Below are positions 46,401 to 60,506 of a stretch of DNA of 64,000 nt, in pieces (position 1 is the first letter of the stretch; the number at the start of each line of letters is the position of its first letter). The notes under the pieces were generated by a model. That model made no database searches and was not told the origin of the DNA. It saw nothing but the letters and a program-made list of their open reading frames with translations. The DNA comes from the human T2T-CHM13v2.0 reference genome, Homo sapiens. The stretch lies in assembly GCF_009914755.1 (NCBI RefSeq), contig NC_060928.1, one strand, 5' to 3'. The translations under genes and the position numbers were made by a program.

Positions 46401-49400
46401 ACGTACAGATGGGATTTTGGTGTGAATGTCTTTTCTGTTTGTTAGTTTTCCTTCTAACGTTCAGGACCCTCAGCTTCAGGTCTGTTGGAGTTTGCTGGAG
46501 GTCCACTCCAGACCCTGTTTGCCTGGGTATCAGCATCAGAGGCTGCAGAACGGCTAATATTGCTGAACAGCAAATGTTGCTGCCTGATCGTTCCTGTGGA
46601 AGCTTTGTCTCAGAGGGGTACCTGGCCGTGTGAGGTGTCAGTCTGCCCCTACTGGGGGGGTGCCTCCCAGTTAGGCTACTCAGGGGTCAGGGACCCACTT
46701 GAGGAGGCAGTCTGTCTGTTCTCAGATCTCAAACTCTTTGATGGGGAGACCACTACTCTCTTCAAAGCTGTCAGACAGGGACAGTTAAGTCTGCAGAGGC
46801 TTCTGCTTCCTTTTGTTCAGCTATGCCCTGCCCCCCAGAGGTGGAGTCTACAGAGGCAGGCAGCCCTCCTGAGCTATGGTAGGCTCCACCTTGTTCCACC
46901 TTCCTGGCCGCTTTGTTTACCTACTCAAGCCTCAGCAATGGCGGGCACCCCTCCCCCAGCCTCACAGCTGCCTTGCAGTTCAATCTCAGAATGCTGTGCT
47001 AGCAATGAGTGAGGCTCCATGGGCATGCGACCCTCCGAACCAGGCATGGAATATAATCTCCTGGTGTTCCATTTGCTAAGACTGTTGGAAAAGCGCAGTG
47101 TTAGTGTGGGAGTGACCTGATTTTCCAGGTGCCATCTGTTACAGCTTCCCTTGGCTAGGAAAGGGAATTCCCTGATCCCTTGTGCTTCCTGGGTGAGGAG
47201 ATGCCTGGACTTGCTTTGGCTCACACTCCATGGGTTGGTTGCACTCACTGTCCTGCACCCACTGTCTGACAAGCCCCAGTGAGATGAACCCAGTACCTCA
47301 GTTGGAAATGCAGAAATCAACCATCTTCTGTGCCGCTCATGCTGGGAGCCATAGACTGGAGCTGTTCCTATTGGGCCATCTTGGAACTGCCCCCCATATT
47401 AGTCCTTCTTGAACTTGCTTAATTCACTTAGCATAATACCCTCTAGGTTCATCCACATTGTCACAAATGGTACCTTTTGTCAAACCTTGGCAACTGAATT
47501 GACATTTCTACTGCTTCCATATACAGAGAAATTATACTAACTGAACTTGTGAAAATAATTTATTGATATTAAATTAAAATGCTCATGAATAGTTTTTGAA
47601 TTCTTGTAAGATCAGATATGGAGAAAAATCTCAAATTTGTCTTTATTTTAATGAATGAAAAATATTTATGATTTTGAAATAATTAGCAATGGGAAACTAA
47701 TTAGGAAAATTGAGATTTTTAGATTGTTCTACTGTTTTGATTATTATTGACATAACATAATATATCGTATATTTCTATATTTACTTTAAAATACATGTTT
47801 ATATATACATATATATATATAGACAGAGCCATCGTGAGTAAATTAGTGTGTATGTGTAGTGGGGGTGTTTGTGTTTTCTTTAATGGATACTCTAGCAGCA
47901 GTTATCTAGTGTATGTCATGTACTAATTAATATTGCATCCCAGAAACAAATCCTAAAACTGCTTTAAATTTGTATCTTTTCTCTCTCTTCTTTCTAAGAA
48001 AGAAATGTATATATGGAACAATACTCTCTGAATTTGTTTCATTTTAGTATACCACATGATAGTGTGGTGAAGGAGTGTGAGGACAGGCAGACAGAGATGG
48101 GAGAAATGGAGAGACAGAGAGAGAAAGAAAGAAAGAAAGAGACAGAGAACTTATTATAGTGAAGCCTTATTTATCTTTGTATCATGAGGGGCTAGCTCAG
48201 GACCTGGCATGAATGGAGCTTATAAAGTGTATATTAAAATAAATAGGCCACTTATGACATGGGTTAAGTCATTCATATTCCAAATTTAATGTAAGAGGTT
48301 CGTTCTAGCATAAATATATATCTTAGGCTTTACAATAAAGTAAAATATTGTTACTTTTATACATATGATATAGGTTTAATTTTGAGAGCACGCACAATAT
48401 TTATTTAAAAATGCTCCTTAAATAAATTTAAAAATATATTTCTACATGAATATAATGTAACATTACCAATTTTATTGAGTCTCTGTTTTTTTCTTATAAA
48501 AAGAACTTACAATGATAATACATAAGTAAAACTGTAATAATTATACCTACTAGACACATAAAAGCTTTGAATTGAAGAAAAATTTTACAATAATCTGTGT
48601 CAGGTTATGATTTAAATTTAGAATTACTGTATTCTAAATTCTCAAACAGAGATCATCAATATTTTTTAGTTATGGTACTGAATTCAATAGAACTTTAAAT
48701 GTACATCATGTATGTGAGCTGACATAGAGGAATCATGATTAAGTAAATCAAAATAGTATTAATGTTCAATGACATGTGGTAGAGAGAAATATTTGATTTT
48801 TAAGTTAGAATTTAGGCATTCAAAACAGGAATCACAGGAATAACAAAAGGACATAACTCTGAACTATGCACACCAGATAAGCATAAAATTTATTTTGCAA
48901 ATGTTTTTGCAGTTTAGTCCTTTGCATCAGTTTATATTGTGGGAAAGTAAGGGAGCAAGAACAGCTGAAATGATATAACACATAAAAATATCAGATAATT
49001 TTTATTGTAAACAGATATAAGCTGAATTTGAAAACAAAATTGATAAGAAATTAAAGAGGAATATATTTCCCACTTGTTCCTTTCATATATAATCCAAAGC
49101 CTAAAATTATGATTCTTTATAGAAATATCTTCCTGCTTTTCTGTCATTTGTCAAAAGAAGAATAAAATCAATATTTATTTTTAGGGCTACATTACTGCAT
49201 CATGAACCTAAACTTAATTCTGACTCTAGAAACCAAGTCAAACCATCAAGAAATGTAAACCATGAGCAAATGAGAATAAATGCAATAAAATCACATCCAA
49301 TATAAAAGGCACGGAGATACTACAAAGAGTAAGAAACATCAGAAAGGGTTTAGGTGAAAATATAATAAATATTCCTTTTCTAAAATGTTGTGGTAGTAAT

Positions 49401-49590
49401 AGTTTATTACTTAATCTACAAAAAATATTGTCAGTATTTCCATACTTACCGAAATGAGTATGATACCTCAGCCTCACTCCTTCAGTATCTTTTTAAATCT
49501 ATTACCGTACTACAGTATCATTTCAACAATGTTAAATATTTAATCACAATTTAAATATTAAATATTAATGATAAGGATAATAATCCTTTA

Positions 49591-50287
49591 CTATGACCTA
49601 TACTATTCATACCGTTCTGGAAATATAACATATAATACCAGCAGATCGCAAGTTAGATAGACCAAAACCCTCTCAAAACCAAGAACAAACAAACAAAAAA
49701 TACAAAGCAAAACATTTAGCCTCTGCATTTAAGGCATGTTTTTCATCAATCCTGATGTGCTGCCGGGAATATACAAAGAAGAGGTGAGACATCTGGGATT
49801 CCCATGGGAAACCAGAAACGAATATATAAATGAAATGTTGAGAAGCCCAGCCATCAATTCTCCATAGTAAGCTAAAGGGTCAGCAAAACAAATAAACTTG
49901 GCTGCCTACAGCCTGCTGAGTAACTCCTTATTTTTATTTGCCTGCCACACCATGAAAGACTCTGCAGTTCTAAAGAAGCTTTGTAGAGAAAAGCAAAGAT
50001 ATCTTCTGTGAGGGTTTCTTAGTTTACTGAAAGTAGGAGAACCTTCACATTAAAAGGAATCAGCATGATCAAGCAGAAGGCTTGGTGGAGGTGCTAACAT
50101 GGTTATCTCATATCCATCAAGTTGGAGTTTTTCTAGAATAACTTTTAAATTGAGTGACTAAAATTCATGGGCCAGACAAGTACTTTCCCAAACTTTCCAG
50201 AGTCAAAGAAACACAGATTCAGCAGGAAAAAAAAAACAAAACCAAACACACACACACACACACACAGAAGACATTCACAGTTTTCAT
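49591..50287 (-). pseudogene. Decayed UDP-glucuronosyltransferase family 2 exon 1 (signal peptide plus aglycone-binding domain)
   Basis: Manual minus-strand translation across frameshifts: MKTVNVF-(TG)n-LLNLCFFDSGKFGKVLVWPMNFSH/NLKVILEKLQLDGYEITMLAPPPSLLLDHA/IPFNVKVLLLSVN*ETLTEDI...SW.../NKELLSRL*AAKFICFADPLAYYGELMAGLLNISFIYSF...LYIPGSTSGLMKNMP*MQRL...FPERYE*Y. The ~700 bp length fits UGT2 exon 1. Confidence 0.9.
50246..50266. repeat. (CA)n microsatellite inside the former signal-peptide codons
   Basis: Directly visible, adjacent to an A-run at 50227-50236. Confidence 0.9.
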
Positions 50288-50406
50288 GACCAACTCTTCC
50301 TTTAATTTACCCTTGGTTTAAAATAAGTACAGCAAGCTCATAAGCCAGATTCATCCTAAATGTGTTTCATGCTTTAATTTCTCAGTCAATTGATGGTGAA
50401 TGAGTC

Positions 50407-50415
50407 TGGACTTTG
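50407..50415 (-). promoter_or_regulatory. Candidate HNF4 site upstream of the UGT exon 1 relic
   Basis: Exact CAAAGTCCA (plus strand tggactttg) about 120 bp upstream of the ATG. Motif match only. Confidence 0.4.
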
Positions 50416-50803
50416 GACAGCCTACTTATTCCAATAGTCAAAGTGGAATATAGCTGTCCTCATGGAAAAGATCATCAAATTAAGCAATATAGCACAAATT
50501 ACATAAAAGCTTTCTAAAATAATTTTATATAATAGGAATTTATGCACTTAAAATTAAATACAACGGAAAGGATTTCTGGTTGAGTCTAAGAAAGTTTTCC
50601 ATGAGATCTTAATTGTTCTAATAAGAAGATTTGGATTCTCTTCTTTAGATTTATTGGAATGTTCATTTGGACATCTTATTTATTTTCACTTTGTTTATCT
50701 TAATGTTGGGATAATAGAAAGCATAGATATTGAGAATGCATACTCTACTATTGGTATTTTTTTTGTCAAAATGTATAATTTATTTTGAAATGTTAAATAG
50801 TGC

Positions 50804-51105
50804 TTATGGGCTGAGTCATGGCTCATTACTCAGAATTCATTTGTTTGTGTTCTAACCCCAAGTACCTCAGAATAGGACTACATTTGGAGACAGGGCCATT
50901 ATGGAAAAAACTAATATAAAATGAGGGCATATAGAGAATATCTTATATGGACATAAGGACAAACACAGAGAAGGAAGTCCATGTAAAAACACTGAAGGAA
51001 GGCAACCATCTACAAACCAATCATAATGGCTTTAGAAGAAACCAACTCTGTTAATCACACTTTGATTACACACTTCTAGCCTCCTGAATGTGAGAAAGCA
51101 TGTTC
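50804..51105 (+). mobile_element. MLT1B-like LTR
   Basis: ttatgggctga...aaccccaagtacctcagaat...atttggagacagggcc...ttctagcctcc. Confidence 0.75.
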
Positions 51106-51121
51106 CTTGGAGAGAAGCACA

Positions 51122-51280
51122 ACACACTGATCATTAGAGAAATGCAAATCAAAACCACAATGAGATACCATCTCACGCCAGTCAGAATGGTGATTATTAA
51201 AATGTCAAGAAACAATAAATGCTGGTGAGGCTGTAGAGAAATAGGAATGCTTTTACACTGTTGGTGGGAATGTAAATTAG
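51122..51280 (+). mobile_element. Short L1PA ORF2 fragment
   Basis: ctgatcattagagaaatgcaaatcaaaaccacaatgagataccatctcacgccagtcagaatgg. Confidence 0.85.
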
Positions 51281-52544
51281 AGCTAGGTCTTTGAGATTAT
51301 GTTGATTAATTGATATCCAATACAAACCAAGTTCAAAGTAGATGAGTAGTTAGAGAGAGGGTAAAAAATGGAGAGTTAAAAATTAATAAATAATAAAGCA
51401 GTCTAGATGGTATACACACTACTTTTAAGGGAGCTTTTTTTTGAAGTTTAGTGAAACTTATGTAACTTTTAAAAATTTCAATTTTATTTGTAACTTCTGA
51501 GTGATTGGTTGTGTTAAAAAAGTTACCATACAATTTCCCATCTTAACAATTTTTAAGTTTGCAATTCAGCAATGTTAAAGTATATTTACATTTTTGTGCC
51601 ACAGGTTTCTAGAAAATGTTCATCTTCGAAAACACATTGAACAACATACCATTTTCCCTTTACTCCAGCCCCTGGTATCCACTATTCCACTTTCTCTTTC
51701 TATGGGTTTTACTACTTTTGACACCACATGTCAGTGAAATCACTTATATGTGTATTTATCTTTTTTTGACTGGCTTATTCAACTTGTTATAACATCCTCA
51801 AGCTTCATCAATGTTGTCACATACGATAGAATAGAATTTTCCTTTTTTACAAGCTAAAAAAATCATTCATTTCATTTATATACCATGTTTTCTTTGTCCA
51901 TTCATCCATCCATGGACATTTGTGTTGCTTTGCTCTCTTGACTATTGTGAATAATGTTGCAAAGAACATGGATGTGCAAATATGTCTTTGAGATCCTACT
52001 TTTAATTATTTTGGATAAATACCTAGAAGTAACATTGTTGGGTCATATGGTAATTTTATTTTATTTTATTTTTTTGAGGAACCTCCATACCTTAACTATA
52101 CGGGTGTCACCATTTTTCATTCCTAACAATAATGCACAAGAGCTCCTATTTATATATATTATCTTCAATACTTTTTGTTTTCTGGGCTGTGTGTGTGTGT
52201 GGGGGGGGGGGTGTGTGTGTGTGTGAATATATGTATTCAAAAATATTTTGAGGTGGCTAATGGTTATGATGTGATAGTTCATTGTAATTTAGGTTTACAT
52301 TTCTCTAATAATTAGTGATGTTAAGCATCTTTTCATATGCTTTTTGGCCATATGTCTATATTTTCTGAATAAATGTGTATTCAAGTCTTTGAATTATTTT
52401 AATTGAATTTTTGCTATTAAATTATAGGGAATTGTCATATATTTTGAATATAAAACACTTAGCTGATAAATTATTTACCAATATTTTCTTTCTTGCAACC
52501 TATTTCTATGGCATCAGTTGTAATGTCTTCTCTTTCTTATTTCT

Positions 52545-52838
52545 TTTTGTTTTTGGCTTGGTCTTTGTTGTGTCTCCAGGCTGCAGTGCAGCAGCAGCAC
52601 CATCTCAGCTCACTGAAACCCTCACTTCCTGAGTTCAAGCGATTCTCTCATGTCAGCCTCCTGAGTAGCTGGGACTACAGGTGCATGCCACCACACCTGG
52701 CTAATTTTTGTAGTTTTAGTAGAGACAGGGTTTCACCATGTTGCCCAGACTGGTCTCCCACTCCTGGGCTCAAGCAGTCAGCCTGCCTCAGCATTCCAAA
52801 GTGCTGGGATTACAGGCATAAGCCACCATGCTCAGCCT
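52545..52838 (-). mobile_element. Alu (AluJ-like)
   Basis: Antisense Alu containing ctcctgggctcaagc; diverged. Confidence 0.88.
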
Positions 52839-53162
52839 GATTTTAATTATACAACTATTCGCTTTTTTTAATCAAGAAAACAATTTCTTGATTTTGTTGA
52901 TCTTTTCAAAAAAAGAAAGCAATAACTCAGTTTTGCTGATTTTTCTCTATTTTCTATTGTATTTATTTCTGCTGTAATCTTTATTACTTTTTTCTTTCTG
53001 ATAATTTTGGTCAGTTCTTTGATATGTAAAGTTAGATTGCTTTAGATATTTCTTCTTTTTAACATAGGCATTTATTACTATAAACTATTTTCATAGTATT
53101 GTTTTTGCTACATTTGTAAGTTCAGGTTCCTTTTTTCACTTCTTTTTGTGTATCTTCTACAG

Positions 53163-53384
53163 CAAGCTTGTCCAACCTGCAGCCTGACAGGTGCATGCAG
53201 CCCAGGACGGCTTTGAATGTGGCCCAGCACAAACTTGTAAACTTTCTTCAAACACTGTGATTTCTCTTACGATTTTTTCCCAGCTCATCAGCTATGGCTA
53301 GTGTTAGTGTATTTTATGTGTGTCCAAGGGCAATTCTTCTTTTCCCAATGTGGTTCAGGGAAGGCAAAAGATTGGGCACCCTTG
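53163..53384. mobile_element. MER30 (hAT-Charlie non-autonomous DNA transposon)
   Basis: Imperfect TIRs caagcttgtccaa / ttgggcacccttg, 8-bp TSD ttctacag / ttctatag, ~220 bp. Confidence 0.85.
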
Positions 53385-53434
53385 TTCTATAGGTGTATTT
53401 TGTGGTTACCAGGAGGATTGCATGAAGTATTTTA

Positions 53435-53590
53435 TAATAAACATTATATAATAAAACAAATTTAAAAATAAATAAATAAAATATAAATAAAATAAAATAT
53501 AAAATTAATTTTATATAATTATAAAATAATTACAAATTATAAAAATAAAATATAAATAAATATTAAATAAAATAAACATTTTAAAATAAC
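53435..53590. repeat. AT-rich low-complexity tract
   Basis: (AAAT/AATA)n-like run. Confidence 0.85.
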
Positions 53591-56500
53591 AGTTCATTTT
53601 AAACAAAAAACCCTTTAATTATACATGAAAAGTCTATTCCTTTACATCTCCCATTCCTACTTTATGTTAGCAATATCACTAGTTGTATATTTTGTGTTGT
53701 GTCCCAATTAATATAAATGTAATGTTACTTTTATGCTTTTCTCTTTTAAATTGCATATCAGAATTAAAAGAAACTTGTGAAGCAACATTAAAAACTTATG
53801 GGATTTTATATTTAATTACATATTTATCTCTACCAGAGAAATTTATACTTTTACATTCATTCATTTTGCTACCTAGTCTCCCTCATTTCAACTTGAAAGA
53901 CTCCTTTTTGCTTTTCTGTAGGACAGGTGTGGTAATAATTACCTTCTTCAACCTTTTTTAAACCCGAGAAAATATTCAATTTTCCATTATTTCTGAATGA
54001 CAGGTTTGCCAAATGAATGTCTTGTGTGGTAGGTTTTTTTTTTCTTTTCTGATTTTTCTTTCAACACTTTGAATATGTTACATCACTTACTTTTGGTTTA
54101 AAAAGATGTCTGCTGGTATCTTGTTGATAATACCATGTGAGTTCCCTTTTATGTCATGATTCATTTTTCTTCTGCTTCCGAGATTCTTTCTTTGTGACTT
54201 TTGAAAGTTTGATTATGATATTTATTGATGCAAAATTTTTGAATTGATCTCAGTGTACGGTAGTTGTATTTTAAAACAATTCTATGTCCATATTCTTCCT
54301 CAAATTTGGGAATTGTCTGCCTGCCATTATTTCTTTAAATAGACTTTTTATCTCAATCTTTTCCTCTTGTCCCATGAGGGCTCTCATAATGCATAACTGG
54401 TCAGGTTAACAATGTCCCATAAGCCTCCGGCTTTCTTCATTTTATTATGAGATTCTTCTTGCTCCTCTCCCTTAATAGCTTGAAATGGCCAATATTTCAA
54501 ATTCATGAATTATTTTTTTCTAGCTGAACAAGTCATCTATTGAATTTCTCTAGTAAATTTTTCAATTTAGTTATTGTATTATTTACCTCCAGAATATCTA
54601 TGTGGTTGTTTTCTATAATTTTTGTGTCTTTGTTGATACTTTTATTTCATATATGTATTATTTTCCTGATTTTTAAAAACTTGTCTATGTTCTTTTAGTT
54701 AATCGAGCATCTTTAATTATTTTTGAAATTTTTGATAGGTATTTAAGATATTTTGAATTTTTTGACAGGTAATGGATAGATCTTTGTTCATTCAGGATTG
54801 AAAAAAGGTTTACTTTGTTCCTTTAAACAGGTCATGCTTTCCAATGTCTGCATGTTTTGCATTTCTTTGTTTAAATTTTGAGATTTAAAGAAACACCCAC
54901 ATCTCCCAGTCTTTATGTACTGGCTTAGTGTAGGGAAATACCTTCATCTATCACCCCTCCTAGAGATTCTGGGAGTTTTGTGAACCATTCCAAGAGCTGT
55001 AGCCTCTCCAGGCTTTTGAATGTAATTACTAAGTTAAATCCAGTTTTTGTTTGTTTGTTTGTTTGTTTTCAGGATTTTGTAATATTTTACTTCACCTGTT
55101 GTCATTCTGTAGTAATAATGCAGCTCTTCTGGTACTGCCCTAAACTGCCCCACTGCCTTTATTCCCAGGCATTCAAATGCTGGGGTTTCTATAGGTGATT
55201 TAAGCTCAGTGACAGAAATCAGACCCTTGGGAAGTCTCTAAGGAGCCAGAACATTAGACCACATTTCAATTAGAGCACTAGAATATTCTGAATTTGTCTA
55301 TATATTTACATTTACCAGTGACTTTTTATATTTTTATTTGTTACATGTTAGTGTCCTTTTCCTTTAGAGTGAAAAATACCCTTTGCATTTCTTCTTAAAC
55401 AGGTTTCGTGTTGGTGAATTCTCCTAGTTTTATTTGTCTTGAAAAGTCTTTATCTCTTCCTCATATATGAAGAAGTGCTTTGATGAGTACAGTATTTTTG
55501 GATTAAAGGTTTTTCAAATTTTTGATTACTTCAGCATTTGGCTATATTATCCCACTCTCTTCTTGCCTGCAAGTTTGCTTTTTTTTCTTTCTTTCTTTTT
55601 TTTTGTTTTCACTGAAAATTCACTGAAAACCATTTGGTAACACTATTGAATGTGTTATGTTTTGTTGTTGTTGTTTTGTTTTGTTTTTCTATCTCTCCTG
55701 CTGCTTTCAGTATTGTTTTTGTTCTTTGATTTTTGGTAATTTGATTATAATGTGCTTTGGGAATTACTTTCTGCGTTGAATTTGTCTGGTGTTGTCCAAG
55801 CTAACTGTTCCCAGATATTATTGTCTTTCTCCAAATTTGGAAAACATTGAGTTATTATATTGAGTTTGTTTTCTAGTCCTTTCTTTTCTCATATCCTCTA
55901 GAAACTTAAATTATGTGGAGGTAGTTCCCTTCATAGTGTCATAAAATTTCTGTGGCCGCCATTCTTTCTTTTTACTTTTATCCCTCTGATTGGGTAATTA
56001 CATGTTTTCTTTCTTTGAGCTTACTGATTCTTTCCTGTTTGATCAAGTCTACTGTTAAAGTTTTCTAATGAGTTTTTCAGTTTAACAATTTTATCCTGCA
56101 TTTCAAGGATTTCATTTTTTTATTATTTTGATTTCTTTCTGAAATGTCTAATATTGTGTCTGCATTATTTTCCAAGTTTCTTTTAGTTTTTTGATTATGG
56201 TTTATGTGATTCCTGAACTTTTCAAAGAGATTTATTTTGAATTTGTTGTCAGATATTTAAGCATCTTCGAATCTTTTTGTGCATTATTGAAACTTGATTG
56301 GTTTCTTTTGGAGATGTCATATTTCCCTGTTTTTTTTTTTTTTTTTTTAACAATACTTGCTGTTTACATTGATGCCTGCATATTTAAGAAGATGGCCACT
56401 TGATTCAGCTTTTTAATGTGTTATGCAGTGGTGTTAAAATATTACTGCTTAATACCAGAGCTGAATCACTACCCTGAGCATTCTTTCTGTTCTGAGGATG

Positions 56501-57644
56501 GCTTATATTTGATAGCAGAACCTAAATAGTGCATTAGAGCTAAATCTCTTCCATGCTGTTGTTTTCCTGTCTGGGGAAGACTTATCATGACCATGAAAAC
56601 ACAATGCTGCACCAGAACTTAAACCCAAAGCCGTAATAATTTCCGGGTTGGGGAAGGCTTAAGAAATAACTAGAACTTAGTTACTTACCTGATAGTTGTT
56701 TCTGGGTCAGAGAAAGGCTCTGTATGATCACCTGGGTTATTTGTAAAATCTGACCAAAGATTCTAGCCTTCCCCTGGATTGTGCCTCCTGTACTACTGTA
56801 GTGCTGGCTAGCCCCCCCATCAATGTGAATTCCCTGTTGATAGGAACACAAAGCGTCTGCCAAGATCTGTTTGCCATTTGCTGTGATTAGTGCTTCTGCT
56901 CTTTGCTTCCAATTCAACCCAGGTGGTTCAGTCCTTCTGACACTCCTAATACCTCCTGTGGGATGGAAAAAAGAAGATTTCTCACAATGATTCACACCCT
57001 GACATGGGGACTGAGCGTCCACCTGCAATTATTTTCTTCCACCTGGGTAATTGCAGGTACAGGGAAGTTTTCTGTGAGTGGTGCTATTTTGGTTTGGAGA
57101 ATGGGTTGATGCAGCACAAATGACCTTTCTTCTTTCTGGTCATGGATTTTTTAATTTCCATGAACCAATAAGATTTTTCACCTTTCTCCTGAGCTCCGGT
57201 GCATTCAGAGTGGTATTTTTATATTTGAATAGTTGCTAGTTGTACTTTTAAGATGGATTGATGCTAGAGGTCTTCAGTTCCACCATCTTGCTGATGTCAC
57301 TACTCAAAAATATTTTTACATGTTAGGAAATTATTTTGTTTTTAGGATTTTGTGTCTACGTGACACAGACATGAAAAGAGATGTACTCTTATCACTGAAA
57401 CTTTTCGTATACTGTTTTGGTTGTGTGCATTTTCTAGTCATGAATGATTATTTATTTAAGCCATATGTTTTACACATAGACTTTCTTAAAAAGAGACTAG
57501 ATGGTTCTATGTGTCAGAATATAGAGACAGAATATAACTACACACTAATAATTTCTCAACTCTTTATTTTAGAAGTGTAAATAACCTTTATTTTAATATT
57601 TTTCATATTACACCTCTGTAATGCAGAGAAATTTTTATCTTCAG

Positions 57645-57776
57645 GAAATGGAAAATTTTGTCCAGAGTTCATGGGAAGATGGTATTGTGGTGCTTTCTCT
57701 GGGGTCACTGTTTCAAAATGTTACAGAGGAAAAGGTTAATATCATTGCTTCAGCCCTTGCCCAGATCCCACAGAAG
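57645..57776 (+). pseudogene. UGT2A3P: UGT2A3-like exon 3 (132 bp, open)
   Basis: tcttcag|[44 protein letters not shown]|gtcagt. Confidence 0.95.
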
Positions 57777-59076
57777 GTCAGTAAAACCTCCAATCCTGAT
57801 AAGTAGCTATTCACATAATGAGAAAGTATAGCTTTTGCCTACTGATCCTTGCTGTTACTGGAAACAACACTCTTGATTGTGGTTTGTTTATAATAAAATA
57901 GAAATAATAAATTAAGCCCCTACATCTTATTTTACAATTTGAAATCTAAAGGCATGTGCCAACTGTTCCAAAATAAGTTCTGACATTTATTATTTCCAAG
58001 GACCAGAAAAAAGAAAACTGATAAAAAAAAGATAAAGAAGAATCAGTCTCAATCTCAAGAATATCCTTCTCATATTTGAGTGCATAAAAACTGTATTCAT
58101 GGTACTTTTGCATAGAAATAAAAGCTCAGCTTAATGTAATCTTTCTCAATAATTAGAGTTTTTAAGAGGTAAATGTCAATTGCAATTATATTATAGTAAC
58201 TTAATTATTTAAGTAATGTAATTATTTATAATACTCAACTGATTTTAACTTTGTTACTACTATAATTCCAGAATTTCACACTTTAGATAGTGCTATATAT
58301 AAACTATCCAAAAGATATTTTACTTTCTATTTAGCTAAAATACATCAAACTCAATAAAGGCAAGTACACTAATTAGGAATGTGAAATCTTGTAATTTTAA
58401 TTACAAAATTATCTGTTAAGTAGTTTGAAAAATCTGTGCCATCATTTCTTTTCAAATGTATGACATTTTTTATAGGTTTCCCACAATTAAAAATTATTGA
58501 AAACAGGTACAATCCCAAAGAAAATTTATCATTGAACAACGGAACATAAGTAATTCTCTAGCTTATACTTCTTCAATAAAACAGTTAAATATAAGAAAGC
58601 AGAGGTCAGAAAGAAAATAGAGAAGAAAAGACAACTGATTATCCAAAACACACACAAAATTGAAAGCAAATTTTATCTGCGGGGAATGGTAAATTTGATG
58701 GTAGAAGTAGAATAGTTCCATGGTTTAAAATGACATAGGGATCATGTACTTATAAAATTTTTAATTCTTATTAGAAAATTGAGTAGCCAGTGCTGAATTA
58801 CTTTTTAATTATTCACTGATATTCTCATTTTCAGATATTTTTGATTGATAATAAAATAATAATTGTATACTTAATAGGCAACAAGTACACATTATCTGAA
58901 AAGACCTTTGTAAAATGTCCTACTATATCTTTTAGTGTTTACACAGTACGTCTACATACCCCTGTCTCAACCATCACCTGAAGTACAATGAGTGTATAAT
59001 TTATAACTATATCTACATACTTAGAATGCTAATGTCCTGTAGTTCAATCTGTGAAGTACATGTGTTTCTTCCATAG

Positions 59077-59165
59077 GTGTTATGGAGGTACAAAGGAAAA
59101 AAAACCATCCACATTAGGAACCAGCACTAAGCTGTATGATTGGATACCCCAGACTGACCTTCTTG
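59077..59165 (+). pseudogene. UGT2A3P: UGT2A3-like exon 4 (89 bp; +1 frameshift)
   Basis: ccatag|[29 protein letters not shown]|gtaggc. A8 run at 59097-59104; the canonical UGT2 exon is 88 bp. Confidence 0.93.
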
Positions 59166-59557
59166 GTAGGCCTATGAGAAAGTAAAAATATGAACTAGAT
59201 GAGGAAAAATGAATAAATGTTAAACAGTGAGCAAATTCAGCAAATATTTAAAATTATAAAACTTTATTTTACTTATACTTTTGAAGCAGATATAATTAAA
59301 GGATTGACTAAAATTGTATAGATAGACTCACACTTTCTATTGTTAAGATGAGAGTGACAGGAAATTCAGGAGGAATTAATGCCTCTTTTTCTGAAGATAG
59401 AAATGATCTTTACTAGCAATGCTCCATGTGCTCACCTTCTAAAGAAAATGCTGTACGCTTCAGTGAGTTATCTCATAATTCCCATCTTTGGTGCTGAAAT
59501 TATTTTAAAAATTCATAATAAAATATCTCACCATTTCTCATTCAATTTGCATACAAG

Positions 59558-59775
59558 GTCACCCCAAACCAAAGCTTTTATCACTCATGGTGGAATGAAT
59601 GGGATCTATGAAGCTATTTACCATGACGTCCCTATGGTGGGAGTTCCCATATTTGGTGATCAGCTTGATAACATAGCTCACAGGAAGGCCAAAGGAGCAG
59701 CTGTAGAAATTAACTTCAAAACTATCACAAGCGAAGATTTACTCAGTGTTTGAGAACAGCCATTAACAATTCCTC
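59558..59775 (+). pseudogene. UGT2A3P: UGT2A3-like exon 5 (218 bp; two -1 deletions)
   Basis: UGT signature [31 protein letters not shown] with donor gtaagt. The canonical exon is 220 bp. Confidence 0.93.
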
Positions 59776-60226
59776 GTAAGTACTACTGATTGTAAAGACT
59801 GATCTAACATTGATTATGTTATACATTATGCCAGGAAATGTTAAATATAATCCTGGTAGACATTTTAAGGGATTTTCCTCCGCAATATTAAGTCATTAAT
59901 CACCTTGGTATTGGAATAGTCCTGGATATTATAGTTCATAGTGTGTCAATCTTCATGGAAATATTAGGTTTAAGTTAACAACTGGCTTACTAAACTTTTA
60001 TTCACCTCTTTGTTTTACCCCATTTTGTTAAGAATATACTCTTTTTCAGTCTCCCCACTATATCTGTTTAATGCTATGCAACCAATAATGTTCACGTCAC
60101 AACCAGCATCAATCTTTTACCCAACAAATTTTTAGCTTGCATAACATATACTACAGTTTATCTACCTGTCTTTTATGAAAACAAAACTACAACTTTCTAA
60201 TTTCTATGTGTGTTTTTGCCTTCCAG

Positions 60227-60506
60227 TTACAAGGAGGATGCTATGAGATTATCAAGAATTCACCATGATCAACCCATAAAGACCCTGGATAGAGCAGTCT
60301 CCTGGATTGAGTTTGTCATGTGCCACAAAGGAGCCAAGCACCTGCGATCAGCTGCCAACGACCTCACCTGGTTCCAGCACTACTCTATAGACATGATTGG
60401 GTTCCCACGTGCCTGGGTGGCAACTGCTATATTCTTGGTCTCATGATGTTGTTTATTTTCCTCTCAAAAATTTAATAAAACTAGAAAGATAGAAAAGAGG
60501 GAACAG
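60227..60506 (+). pseudogene. UGT2A3P: UGT2A3-like exon 6 coding part (premature TGA at 60444-60446)
   Basis: ttccag|[40 protein letters not shown]...[27 protein letters not shown], then CAG at the ancestral stop position. Confidence 0.94.

What the first reader, a model, noticed from the sequence alone, without database searches (positions are those of the whole stretch)
49591..50287. Hidden fossil exon 1 of a UGT2 gene unlike human UGT2A/2B: possible relic of a lost UGT2 subfamily
Seen: no ORF is listed here, but manual minus-strand translation gives a collinear UGT2 exon 1 (MKTVNV...GKVLVWPMNFSH..NLKVILE..EIT...ADP..GEL.A.LLNI...YIPGSTSGL...QRL...FPE..E.Y) with several stops, small deletions and a deletion of roughly 20 codons. 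Knowledge/inference: motifs such as PSLLLDH-IPFNV, NKELLSRLxAAKF and PGSTSGL differ from human UGT2A1/2A2/2A3 and UGT2B as I recall them. They resemble the UGT2E1/'UGT2C1-like' genes of carnivores and ungulates. This would make it a unitary pseudogene recording loss of a detoxification enzyme in the primate line.
Basis: partly seen in the sequence, partly recalled or inferred. Interest (0 to 1): 0.8.

Follow-up and report, generated by a model that had tools for sequence, protein, structure and literature searches.

The report
Dead UGT2C/2E first exon in humans
This stretch is the decayed first exon of a detoxification-enzyme gene of the UGT2C/UGT2E type, which rabbits, horses, cats and colugos still use and humans lack, and several similar relics lie in the same human gene cluster.

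Summary
Window 49594-50287, minus strand, is a collinear UGT2 first exon with 4 in-frame stops, 4 frameshifts, a 22-codon deletion and smaller indels.

- Read frameshift-aware, the relic is 64% identical to colugo "UGT2C1-like" (score 470). It is 36% identical to human UGT2B7 and UGT2A3 (scores 154 and 132). Shuffled DNA scores 27-35.
- In a maximum-likelihood tree it sits inside the UGT2C/2E clade (100/100), sister to colugo. Translating it with a 2B7 or 2A3 guide does not move it.

- It is not single-copy. There are four more first-exon copies and two fragments in the chr4 UGT2 cluster.
- Two stops and a 6-codon gap are common to all five full copies, so the gene was dead before it was duplicated.
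- No 2C-type exons 2-6 were found.
- The copy lies in one arm of an inverted duplication flanking a UGT2A3 pseudogene.

No RefSeq row covers it, and no paper in the library describes it. It is a new pseudogene member of a known subfamily, of moderate interest.

The parts
49594..50287 (-). Relic of a UGT2C/UGT2E-type first exon (copy F1). In the intact enzyme this exon encodes the signal peptide and the N-terminal, aglycone-binding half.
   Evidence: Frameshift-aware alignment to colugo UGT2C1-like P0190: 128 of 201 aligned codons identical, score 470. Placed in the 2C/2E clade in the tree.
50285..50287 (-). Former start codon (ATG; reads MKTVNV...).
   Evidence: Aligns to residue 1 of the colugo, bear, rabbit and cat 2C1-type proteins.
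50234..50260 (-). 9-codon insertion in the signal-peptide region, a (GT)n run.
   Evidence: Position, (GT)n run. Absent from copies F2-F5 in the DNA alignment.
49906..49908 (-). TAG stop at guide residue 141, where intact proteins have Q (SRLQAAKF). Present in all five copies (TAA in F5).
   Evidence: intact residue.
49603..49605 (-). TAG stop at guide residue 235, where intact proteins have Y (WDEYY). Present in all five copies.
49729..49731 (-). TAA stop at guide residue 207. Present in F1-F4; F5 has TAT.
50019..50021 (-). TAA stop at guide residue 82. It is in frame only in this copy, after an extra A; F2-F4 carry the same triplet out of frame.
49945..49949 (-). Site of the 22-codon deletion and an adjoining frameshift, specific to this copy.
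   Evidence: F2-F5 keep about 60-77 more bases here.
49675..49716 (-). 14-codon T-rich insertion, present in F1-F4 and absent from F5.
47396..54207 (.). Arm of an inverted segmental duplication that carries the relic. The other arm is C4:72232003-72241377, just beyond the window, and carries copy F2 on the + strand.
   Evidence: Megablast pieces of 87.7-90.1% identity in inverted orientation.
57642..60503 (+). Context, not part of the relic: exons 3-6 of a UGT2A3 duplicate (LOC100422026), lying between the two inverted arms.
   Evidence: tblastn gives 73-100% identity to capuchin UGT2A3 per HSP. Sister to capuchin 2A3 at 100/99 in the C-terminal tree.

Best explanation
Window 49594-50287 (-) is an unprocessed pseudogene fragment. 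It is the dead first exon of the primate counterpart of UGT2C1/UGT2E1 (the 'UGT2B-II' clade of one preprint), a UDP-glucuronosyltransferase subfamily for which no human or other primate protein turned up. It most likely does nothing now.

Shown:
- It is of the 2C/2E type.
- It is one of five first-exon copies (F1-F5) plus two fragments (F6, F7) in the chr4 UGT2 cluster.
- All five full copies carry the same two stop positions and the same-length 6-codon gap.
- No copy has a 2C-type exon 2-6 next to it.
- F1 lies in one arm of an inverted duplication that flanks a UGT2A3 pseudogene.

Inferred history:
1. An ancestral UGT2C/E gene lay downstream of UGT2A3 in the same orientation. This order is seen three times: Y-F5, LOC100422026-F2, and unit-B UGT2A3P-F4.
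2. It was knocked out (Q141 to stop, Y235 to stop, in-frame deletion) early in or before primate history.
3. Its first exon was then carried along as a passenger when UGT2A3-containing segments were duplicated. The first duplication has K2P about 0.26-0.31. A later burst, including inverted copies, has K2P about 0.09-0.10.
4. The 22-codon deletion, the (GT)n insertion and one extra base are later, private decay of this copy.
For: Presence and significance:
- Searches show the fragments and lesions. Score is 470, against 27-35 for 6 shuffles.

Subfamily:
- Profile A1 of the relics against 1,835,955,588 representatives gave 28 proteins at E<=0.001. The top three scored 158.6, 108.2 and 93.2 bits; the next scored 82.9.
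- The named one is bear 'UGT 2C1-like'.
- The consensus of the copies is 58-61% identical to bear, rabbit UGT2C1, colugo and cat proteins, with scores 504-552. It is 30-35% identical to human 2B7, 2A3 and 2A1/2, with scores 107-159.
- F1 alone: 128/201 identical to colugo, against 65/179 (2B7) and 64/178 (2A3).
- Careful ML tree of 48 rows and 246 columns: F1-F5 form one clade (100/97), inside 2C/2E (100/100, branch length 0.62), sister to the two colugo proteins (91/96). Human 2B (97/100) and 2A3 (96/87) are separate.
- Guide-bias control: F1 translated with a 2B7 or 2A3 guide is still inside 2C/2E, SH-aLRT 100.

Copies:
- One search found F2, F3, F4 and F5. One search found F6. One search found F7.
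- Common lesions: stop at residue 141 (TAG in four copies, TAA in F5); stop at residue 235 (TAG in all five); equal length at the 6-codon gap and at the residue-37 frameshift.

Unprocessed and orphan:
- No exon-2 match lies beside any copy, and there are no minus-strand exons 2-6 below F1 in the window.
- No human exon 3-6 groups with 2C.

No living primate member seen:
- By my count of the table, 84 of the 120 listed rows are at least 53% identical to the bear N-domain.
- About 65 of those carry species names. All are carnivores, perissodactyls, artiodactyls/cetaceans, rabbit or colugos.
- The 6 primate rows are UGT2A1/2/3 at 35-42%.

Literature, passages read:
- UGT2C/2E is the eutherian subclade UGT2B-II (bioRxiv 10.1101/2021.08.20.457063).
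Against: - Only the first exon is found. The rest of a 2C-type gene is missing from the human genome, so 'a whole gene that died here' is inferred from the intact 6-exon-length proteins of other mammals.
- The frame-corrected translations depend on a guide protein. This was controlled, but the DNA alignment of copies is MAFFT's and F5 is gappy.
- The stop at residue 141 differs by one base in F5 (TAA against TAG), so a parallel hit or gene conversion cannot be fully excluded.
- F6 (31 codons, 24 of 30 identical to colugo) keeps residues that fall in the 6-codon gap of F1-F5. Not all human relics therefore descend from the one dead ancestor inferred here. A second 2C-type gene may have existed, or F6 split off earlier.
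- Dating rests on assumed neutral rates that I recalled rather than computed.
- No other primate genome was available. The absence of primate 2C proteins comes from a word-filtered search that lists only 120 of 142 hits.
- The sister position to colugo has 91/96 support and is not starred.
Confidence: 0.9

Rival explanations
1. It is a heavily decayed first exon of a human-type UGT2B or UGT2A3 gene, for example the missing exon 1 of the neighbouring UGT2A3 pseudogene LOC100422026 turned around by an inversion. Its oddness would then be only neutral decay.
For: LOC100422026 lacks exons 1-2 in the window and lies 7 kb away (hub table). NCBI names some carnivore UGT2E genes 'UGT2A3-like' (PMC9658400).
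Against: - The relic is 36% identical to human 2A3 and 2B7 but 64% identical to colugo 2C1-like.
- The sister UGT2A3 pseudogene in unit B still has its own 2A3-type exon 1, 84% identical to human 2A3, as well as flanking relic copies.
- The tree excludes it from 2A3 and 2B with starred branches. This holds with 2B7- or 2A3-guided translation.
Confidence: 0.02
2. The window copy, and perhaps all copies, never belonged to a complete gene at these places. They are exon-1-only passengers of segmental duplications, and the true ancestral UGT2C/E locus has been deleted or is one of the older pieces (F5, F6, F7). The gene may then have died by deletion of exons 2-6 rather than by the common stop codons. 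This refines the main reading rather than opposing it.
For: - No 2C-type exons 2-6 occur anywhere in the genome.
- F1 and F2, and F3 and F4, are inverted pairs inside duplicated arms.
- F3 and F4 differ by K2P 0.015 only, which suggests recent duplication or conversion.
- F6 lacks the 6-codon gap.
Against: Two stops and an in-frame gap are common to copies that differ by K2P 0.26-0.31. Point lesions therefore predate the oldest duplication that can be seen. Which lesion came first cannot be ordered with these data.
Confidence: 0.45
3. The relic has been kept because it now serves as something else: a regulatory element or a non-coding RNA exon of the UGT2 cluster.
For: None direct. Five copies survive and remain alignable.
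Against: - The copies diverge from each other by K2P about 0.09-0.10, and the surrounding non-coding duplicated arm is 88-90% identical. There is thus no sign of extra conservation.
- Lesions accumulate freely: private deletions and a microsatellite.
- No RefSeq functional element or transcript is listed here (hub table).
Confidence: 0.04

Closest known systems
UGT2C1 (rabbit) / UGT2E1 (cat) and the 'UGT2C1-like' genes of horses, rhinos, pigs, ruminants, camels, whales, bears and colugos (subclade 'UGT2B-II')
   Same: First-exon sequence: 58-64% amino-acid identity across about 200-224 aligned codons. Collinear from the start Met to the ...FPEWDEYY end of exon 1. Subfamily motifs are present. 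Same clade in the tree. Same chromosomal cluster type, the UGT2 cluster.
   Different: Broken by stops, frameshifts and indels. Only exon 1 is present, in several copies. No C-terminal UDP-sugar-binding half, so no enzyme can be made.
Named human UGT2 pseudogenes (UGT2B24P-UGT2B29P, names recalled and seen only in search listings) and RefSeq's LOC100422026 'UGT2A3 pseudogene'
   Same: Unprocessed pseudogenes within the same 4q13 cluster, produced by segmental duplication.
   Different: Those that I examined are of the 2B or 2A3 type:
- LOC100422026 groups with 2A3.
- The pseudogene downstream of UGT2A3 groups with 2B.
- LOC100422189 is 2B-like.
This relic belongs to a subfamily with no living human member. 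I could not check the sequences of UGT2B24P-29P.
UGT1A6 and UGT2B31 pseudogenes of cats and other carnivores
   Same: Loss of a detoxifying UGT recorded by a pseudogene (PMC9658400, passages read).
   Different: Those are lineage-specific losses of single genes with all exons still present. Here a whole subfamily is gone and only first exons remain.

Membership tests
UGT2C/UGT2E subfamily (UGT2B-II) | Groups with UGT2C1/UGT2E1 proteins, to the exclusion of UGT2A and UGT2B, in a phylogeny | tested here: met
   12 2C-type proteins plus 5 relics form one clade at 100/100; the same holds with other guides (SH-aLRT 100).
UGT2C/UGT2E subfamily (UGT2B-II) | About 60% or more amino-acid identity to subfamily members, and less to other subfamilies (nomenclature rule, recalled, not from a call) | tested here: inconclusive
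   Exon 1 only: 58-64% to 2C1-type proteins against 30-36% to human 2A/2B. The contrast is clear, but the value sits at the threshold, the sequence is decayed and only half a protein is available.
UGT2C/UGT2E subfamily (UGT2B-II) | Complete gene with its own exons 2-6 encoding the UDP-glucuronic-acid-binding C-terminal domain | tested here: not met
   No exon 2-6 match beside any copy. No human C-terminal exon stands out as 2C-type. The three candidate pseudogenes group with 2B or 2A. It is therefore a relic of a member, not a member gene.
UGT2C/UGT2E subfamily (UGT2B-II) | Lies in the UGT2 cluster | tested here: met
   The window is chr4:72168001-72232000, between UGT2B15 and UGT2B10 (hub table).
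Pfam UDPGT (PF00201) | Match to the family profile above the curated cut-off | tested here: not met
   0 of 6 single-frame fragments matched at E<=10. The region was not among the 86 scored genome matches. The intact relatives found with the relic's own profile carry PF00201.
Unitary pseudogene | Single-copy dead gene with no functional counterpart in the genome and a working ortholog in other species | tested here: not met
   Working relatives in other mammals: yes. No functional human 2C-type gene seen. But it is multi-copy: F1-F5 plus F6 and F7.
Unprocessed (duplicated/genomic) pseudogene | Homology stops at the exon boundary, with no fused downstream exons and no retroposition hallmarks | tested here: met
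   The alignment ends at the last residues of exon 1. Exon 2 is not adjacent. The flanks are co-duplicated over about 7 kb. A poly-A tail was not looked for.

The most novel reading that the evidence does not exclude
Humans, and probably all primates, once had a UGT2C/UGT2E detoxification gene next to UGT2A3. It was knocked out by nonsense mutations around the origin of primates. Its dead first exon was then copied at least five times by the same segmental duplications that built the human UGT2B/UGT2A3 cluster. These relics are, as far as I could see, unannotated and undescribed. They give dated, orientation-bearing markers for reconstructing how the pharmacogenetically important 4q13 cluster was assembled, and direct proof that the subfamily was lost rather than never present.
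Probability: 0.5. Interest if true: 0.55.

Novelty: new member of a known kind. Interest (0 to 1): 0.45.

Why it matters
UGT2 enzymes clear steroids, bile acids and many drugs, and species differences in them complicate the use of animal models.
- The papers I read say only that humans and rodents 'might not have' UGT2E/2C equivalents. These relics turn that absence into a documented loss.
- The lesions common to all copies can be traced across primates to date the loss.
- The relics also mark the duplication units (UGT2A3 copy plus 2C exon 1, often as inverted pairs) that shaped the copy-number-variable UGT2B cluster.

The finding is tidy and useful for UGT nomenclature and for annotation (GENCODE, HGNC, RefSeq). 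It does not change how the enzymes are understood.

Tried and rejected
1. Pfam on the six single-frame fragments found nothing.
2. A word-indexed protein search with the window's longest in-frame piece gave 104 candidates, none at E<=1. The decayed sequence shares too few exact words.
3. The same tool with human UGT2A3 exon 1 returned mostly UGT2A3 orthologs and bird UGT2s, and no 2C-type protein. One rhino hit that looked promising (P0021) proved to be a fusion of 2A1, 2A2 and 2A3 first exons.
4. Alignment A2 tried to add the N-terminal fragments to the profile. MAFFT misplaced them, so A2 was discarded and A1 was used.
5. Hypothesis: the pseudogene just downstream of the real UGT2A3 (exons 3-6, C4:72355912-72365739, minus strand) is the missing 3' part of the 2C gene. 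Rejected: it groups with human UGT2B at 100/100 and is 85% identical to UGT2B4.
6. Hypothesis: the older pseudogene Y upstream of F5 is 2C-type because of its tail sequence. Not supported: it falls, unresolved, in the 2A clade at 94/95 on a long branch. That tree has flaws. Three rows (serow, owl monkey, vole) were cut at a different point because the protein models are shorter, and they cluster artificially. The pig '2A3' row groups with pig 2C, so it is probably a chimeric model.
7. A search of the own genome with the profile was not accepted. DNA searches with F5 and F6 were used instead. The flanks of F6 are common interspersed repeats.
9. Literature searches found no description of a human 2C/2E relic: 'UGT2E1', 'UGT2E', 'UGT2C1'+'pseudogene'+'human', 'UGT2C'+'primates', and the named UGT2 pseudogenes. 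The library lacks most subscription journals, the preprint's supplements are closed, and I did not open the supplements of PMC9658400.

Full report
**What is in the sequence**

The window is chr4:72168001-72232000 of T2T-CHM13, between UGT2B15 and UGT2B10 (hub table). On the minus strand of 49594-50287 the three reading frames together spell a collinear UGT first exon. No single frame is open. Pfam sees none of the six fragments at E<=10. The region was not among the 86 scored PF00201 matches of the genome.

I wrote a frameshift-aware protein-to-DNA aligner. With it the relic aligns from its ATG (50285-50287) to the last residues of exon 1.

Lesions relative to an intact guide protein:
- Four in-frame stops: 50019-21, 49906-08, 49729-31 and 49603-05.
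- Four frameshifts.
- Deletions of 22, 6, 1, 1 and 1 codons.
- Insertions of 9 codons, seen as a (GT)n run, and 14 codons (T-rich).

Six shuffles of the same DNA score 27-35, against 470 for the real sequence.

**Which UGT2 it is**

Against human first exons taken from the same genome, the relic is about equally far from all of them.
- The consensus of the copies is 33% identical to 2B7, 35% to 2A3 and 30% to 2A1/2, with scores 107-159.

A word-indexed search with the longest in-frame piece failed. A UGT2A3-seeded search brought only 2A3 orthologs and bird UGT2s.

I then aligned unchanged single-frame translations of the copies (alignment A1) and ran the profile against 1.84 billion representative proteins.
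- 28 proteins scored E<=0.001.
- The top three scored 158.6, 108.2 and 93.2 bits, and the next 82.9. Single N-domains of bird and turtle UGT2s had given about 40-54 bits locally.
- The 108-bit hit, P0123, is 'UDP-glucuronosyltransferase 2C1-like isoform X3 [Ursus arctos]'.

A search seeded with its N-domain gave 142 hits at E<=1e-20, of which 120 were listed.
- By my count, 84 listed rows are at least 53% identical.
- About 65 of these carry species names. All are bears, cats, dogs, equids, rhinos, pigs or peccary, ruminants, camels, cetaceans, hippo, rabbit ('UGT2C1 precursor') or colugos.
- The six primate rows are UGT2A1/2/3 at 35-42%.

Frameshift-aware identities:
- Consensus: 136/224 to colugo, 132/219 to rabbit UGT2C1, 128/222 to bear and 127/219 to leopard cat, with scores 504-552.
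- The window copy alone: 128/201 to colugo (score 470), against 65/179 to 2B7 and 64/178 to 2A3.

**Tree**

The careful maximum-likelihood tree had 48 rows and 246 columns.

Rows:
- 12 of the 2C-type proteins, picked to span orders.
- 8 UGT2A3.
- 4 UGT2A1/2.
- 9 UGT2B, of which 7 are human.
- 2 marsupial and 5 non-mammal sequences.
- 3 human UGT1A as outgroup.
- The five relics.

Results:
- The relics form one clade (100/97).
- That clade sits inside the 2C/2E clade (100/100, stem length 0.62).
- It is sister to the two colugo proteins (91/96, not starred). That is where a primate ortholog should fall.
- Human 2B (97/100) and 2A3 (96/87) are separate clades.

The relic translations had been made with a 2C guide, so I repeated the tree with F1 translated under a 2B7 guide and a 2A3 guide. 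Both rows still fall inside 2C/2E with SH-aLRT 100 (quick tree).

**It is not alone**

A DNA search of the genome with the relic found four more first-exon copies in the cluster:
- F2 at C4:72238397-72239189 (+), 20 kb to the right and just outside the window.
- F3 at 72675373-72676125 (-).
- F4 at 72702731-72703481 (+).
- F5 at 72593923-72594332 (+).

Two fragments were found later:
- F6, 31 codons at 72608719-72608811 (-), with 24 of 30 identical to colugo residues 185-215.
- F7 at 72411173-72411382 (-), 90% identical to the 3' part of F5.

K2P distances:
- 0.090-0.098 among F1, F2 and F3/F4.
- 0.015 between F3 and F4.
- 0.256-0.311 between F5 and the rest.

State of the lesions across the five full copies in the DNA alignment:

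| Lesion | Copies |
|---|---|
| Stop at guide residue 141 | All five (TAG in F1-F4, TAA in F5) |
| TAG at residue 235 | All five |
| 6-codon gap and residue-37 frameshift region | Same length in all five |
| TAA at residue 207 and the 14-codon insertion | F1-F4 only |
| 22-codon deletion and (GT)n insertion | F1 only |

The simplest reading is that the gene was already dead before the oldest duplication that can still be seen. F6 keeps residues that lie in the 6-codon gap of F1-F5. It therefore either split off before that deletion or comes from a second 2C-type gene. This is unexplained.

**Surroundings**

Full-length UGT2A3, UGT2B-like and UGT2C proteins find only two things in the window:
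- the relic; and
- on the plus strand, exons 3-6 of a UGT2A3 duplicate at 57642-60503, which is RefSeq's LOC100422026.

There are no minus-strand exons 2-6 below the relic, and no exon 2 beside any copy. The relics are therefore orphan first exons of genomic, unprocessed origin.

The relic lies in a roughly 7-kb arm (window 47396-54207). This arm is repeated in inverted orientation at C4:72232003-72241377 with 88-90% identity. F1(-) and F2(+) thus flank LOC100422026.

The same layout recurs at 72.67-72.71 Mb. There F3(-) and F4(+) flank a second UGT2A3 pseudogene, which still has its own 2A3-type exon 1, 84% identical to human UGT2A3.

An older unit at 72.58-72.60 Mb has a 2A-like pseudogene (Y) followed by F5 in the same orientation. 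It matches the window at 71.5-72.3% DNA identity.

So 'UGT2A3-type gene, then 2C first exon downstream on the same strand' occurs three times. I infer that this was the ancestral order.

The real UGT2A3 locus shares homology with the window unit for about 4.4 kb past exon 6. It then runs into exons 3-6 of another pseudogene. I tested whether that pseudogene, or Y, is the lost 3' half of the 2C gene. The answer is no:
- The first groups with human UGT2B (100/100).
- LOC100422026 and its sister group with capuchin UGT2A3 (100/99).
- Y falls, unresolved, in the 2A clade (94/95, long branch).

That tree has known flaws, listed under Tried and rejected. A genome-wide search with colugo 2C1-like also shows no human exon 3-6 that stands out as 2C-type.

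**Timing (inferred)**

These figures use neutral rates of roughly 1.2-2.2e-9 per site per year, which I recalled rather than computed.
- K2P of about 0.09-0.10 puts the F1/F2/F3-4 burst some 20-40 million years back.
- K2P of about 0.26-0.31 puts the F5 split some 60-130 million years back.

Three observations point to a loss early in, or on the stem of, primates, independent of the rodent loss:
- the sister position to colugo;
- the lesions common to all copies; and
- the lack of any named primate 2C-type protein, although tarsier, lemur and galago UGT2A3 proteins are in the same database.

This is not shown. No other primate genome could be searched here.

**What is known**

Two papers in the library treat the subfamily.
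- PMC9658400 (passages read). [quoted passage not shown]
- The preprint 10.1101/2021.08.20.457063 (passages read). It calls UGT2C/2E the eutherian subclade UGT2B-II.

A sika-deer genome paper reports UGT2C genes induced by tannin (PMC10372904, passages read).

None of five literature searches found a description of a human relic of this subfamily. The RefSeq table supplied with the finding has no row for F1. The first listed feature after the window starts at window coordinate 87035, so F2 (70397-71189) has no row either. I could not consult GENCODE, HGNC or the closed supplements.

**Verdict**

This is the dead first exon of a UGT2C/UGT2E-type gene, a subfamily with no living human member. 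It is better described as one of a small family of co-duplicated relics than as a unitary pseudogene.

It most likely has no present function. Its value is historical:
- It documents the loss of a detoxification subfamily.
- It supplies markers for the assembly of the 4q13 UGT2 cluster.

I rate it a new (pseudogene) member of a known kind, of moderate interest.

Noticed in passing
window 57642-60503 (+), with L033:4962-5738 and L034:344-3196: LOC100422026 is a true UGT2A3 duplicate with exons 3-6 only. A sister copy at C4:72.686-72.694 Mb keeps a 2A3-type exon 1, 84% identical to human UGT2A3, with stops. The two are sisters and group with capuchin UGT2A3 at 100/99.
   Followed up: partly
L031:2950-3850 (window coordinates about 86950-87850, outside the window; RefSeq LOC100422189): A second, different fossil first exon lies 1.3 kb upstream of UGT2B10. 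It is UGT2B-type: 51% identical to UGT2B7, 48% to a wallaby UGT2, 35% to colugo 2C, with about 10 frameshifts.
   Followed up: partly
L038:4912-5265 and L039:177-4739 (C4:72355912-72365739, minus strand): Directly downstream of the real UGT2A3 lie exons 3-6 of a UGT2B-type pseudogene, 85% identical to UGT2B4 and inside the 2B clade at 100/100. Homology between the UGT2A3 locus and the window's duplicate ends just before it.
   Followed up: partly
L041:9719-9811 (C4:72608719-72608811, minus strand): A 31-codon 2C-type fragment (F6) is better preserved than F1-F5 (24 of 30 identical to colugo). It retains residues that fall in their common 6-codon gap. Its flanks are common interspersed repeats. 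Its relation to the other copies is unexplained.
   Followed up: partly
L013 (C4:72743445-72744704), the UGT2B first exon at 72743745-72744404 (+): In this assembly the open frame reads Ile where the paralogous UGT2B first exons have the initiator Met. I labelled the locus '2B28' from its position only. It may be a start-loss allele or a pseudogene.
   Followed up: no
L032 and L035 (F3 and F4): The two inverted copies F3 and F4 differ by only K2P 0.015, while all other pairs of the young group differ by 0.09-0.10. This suggests a recent inverted duplication or gene conversion between the arms.
   Followed up: no
P0096 (pig 'glucuronosyltransferase', UniRef): Its N-terminal half groups with UGT2A3, but its last 242 residues group with pig UGT2C at 100/100. 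It is probably a chimeric gene model.
   Followed up: no
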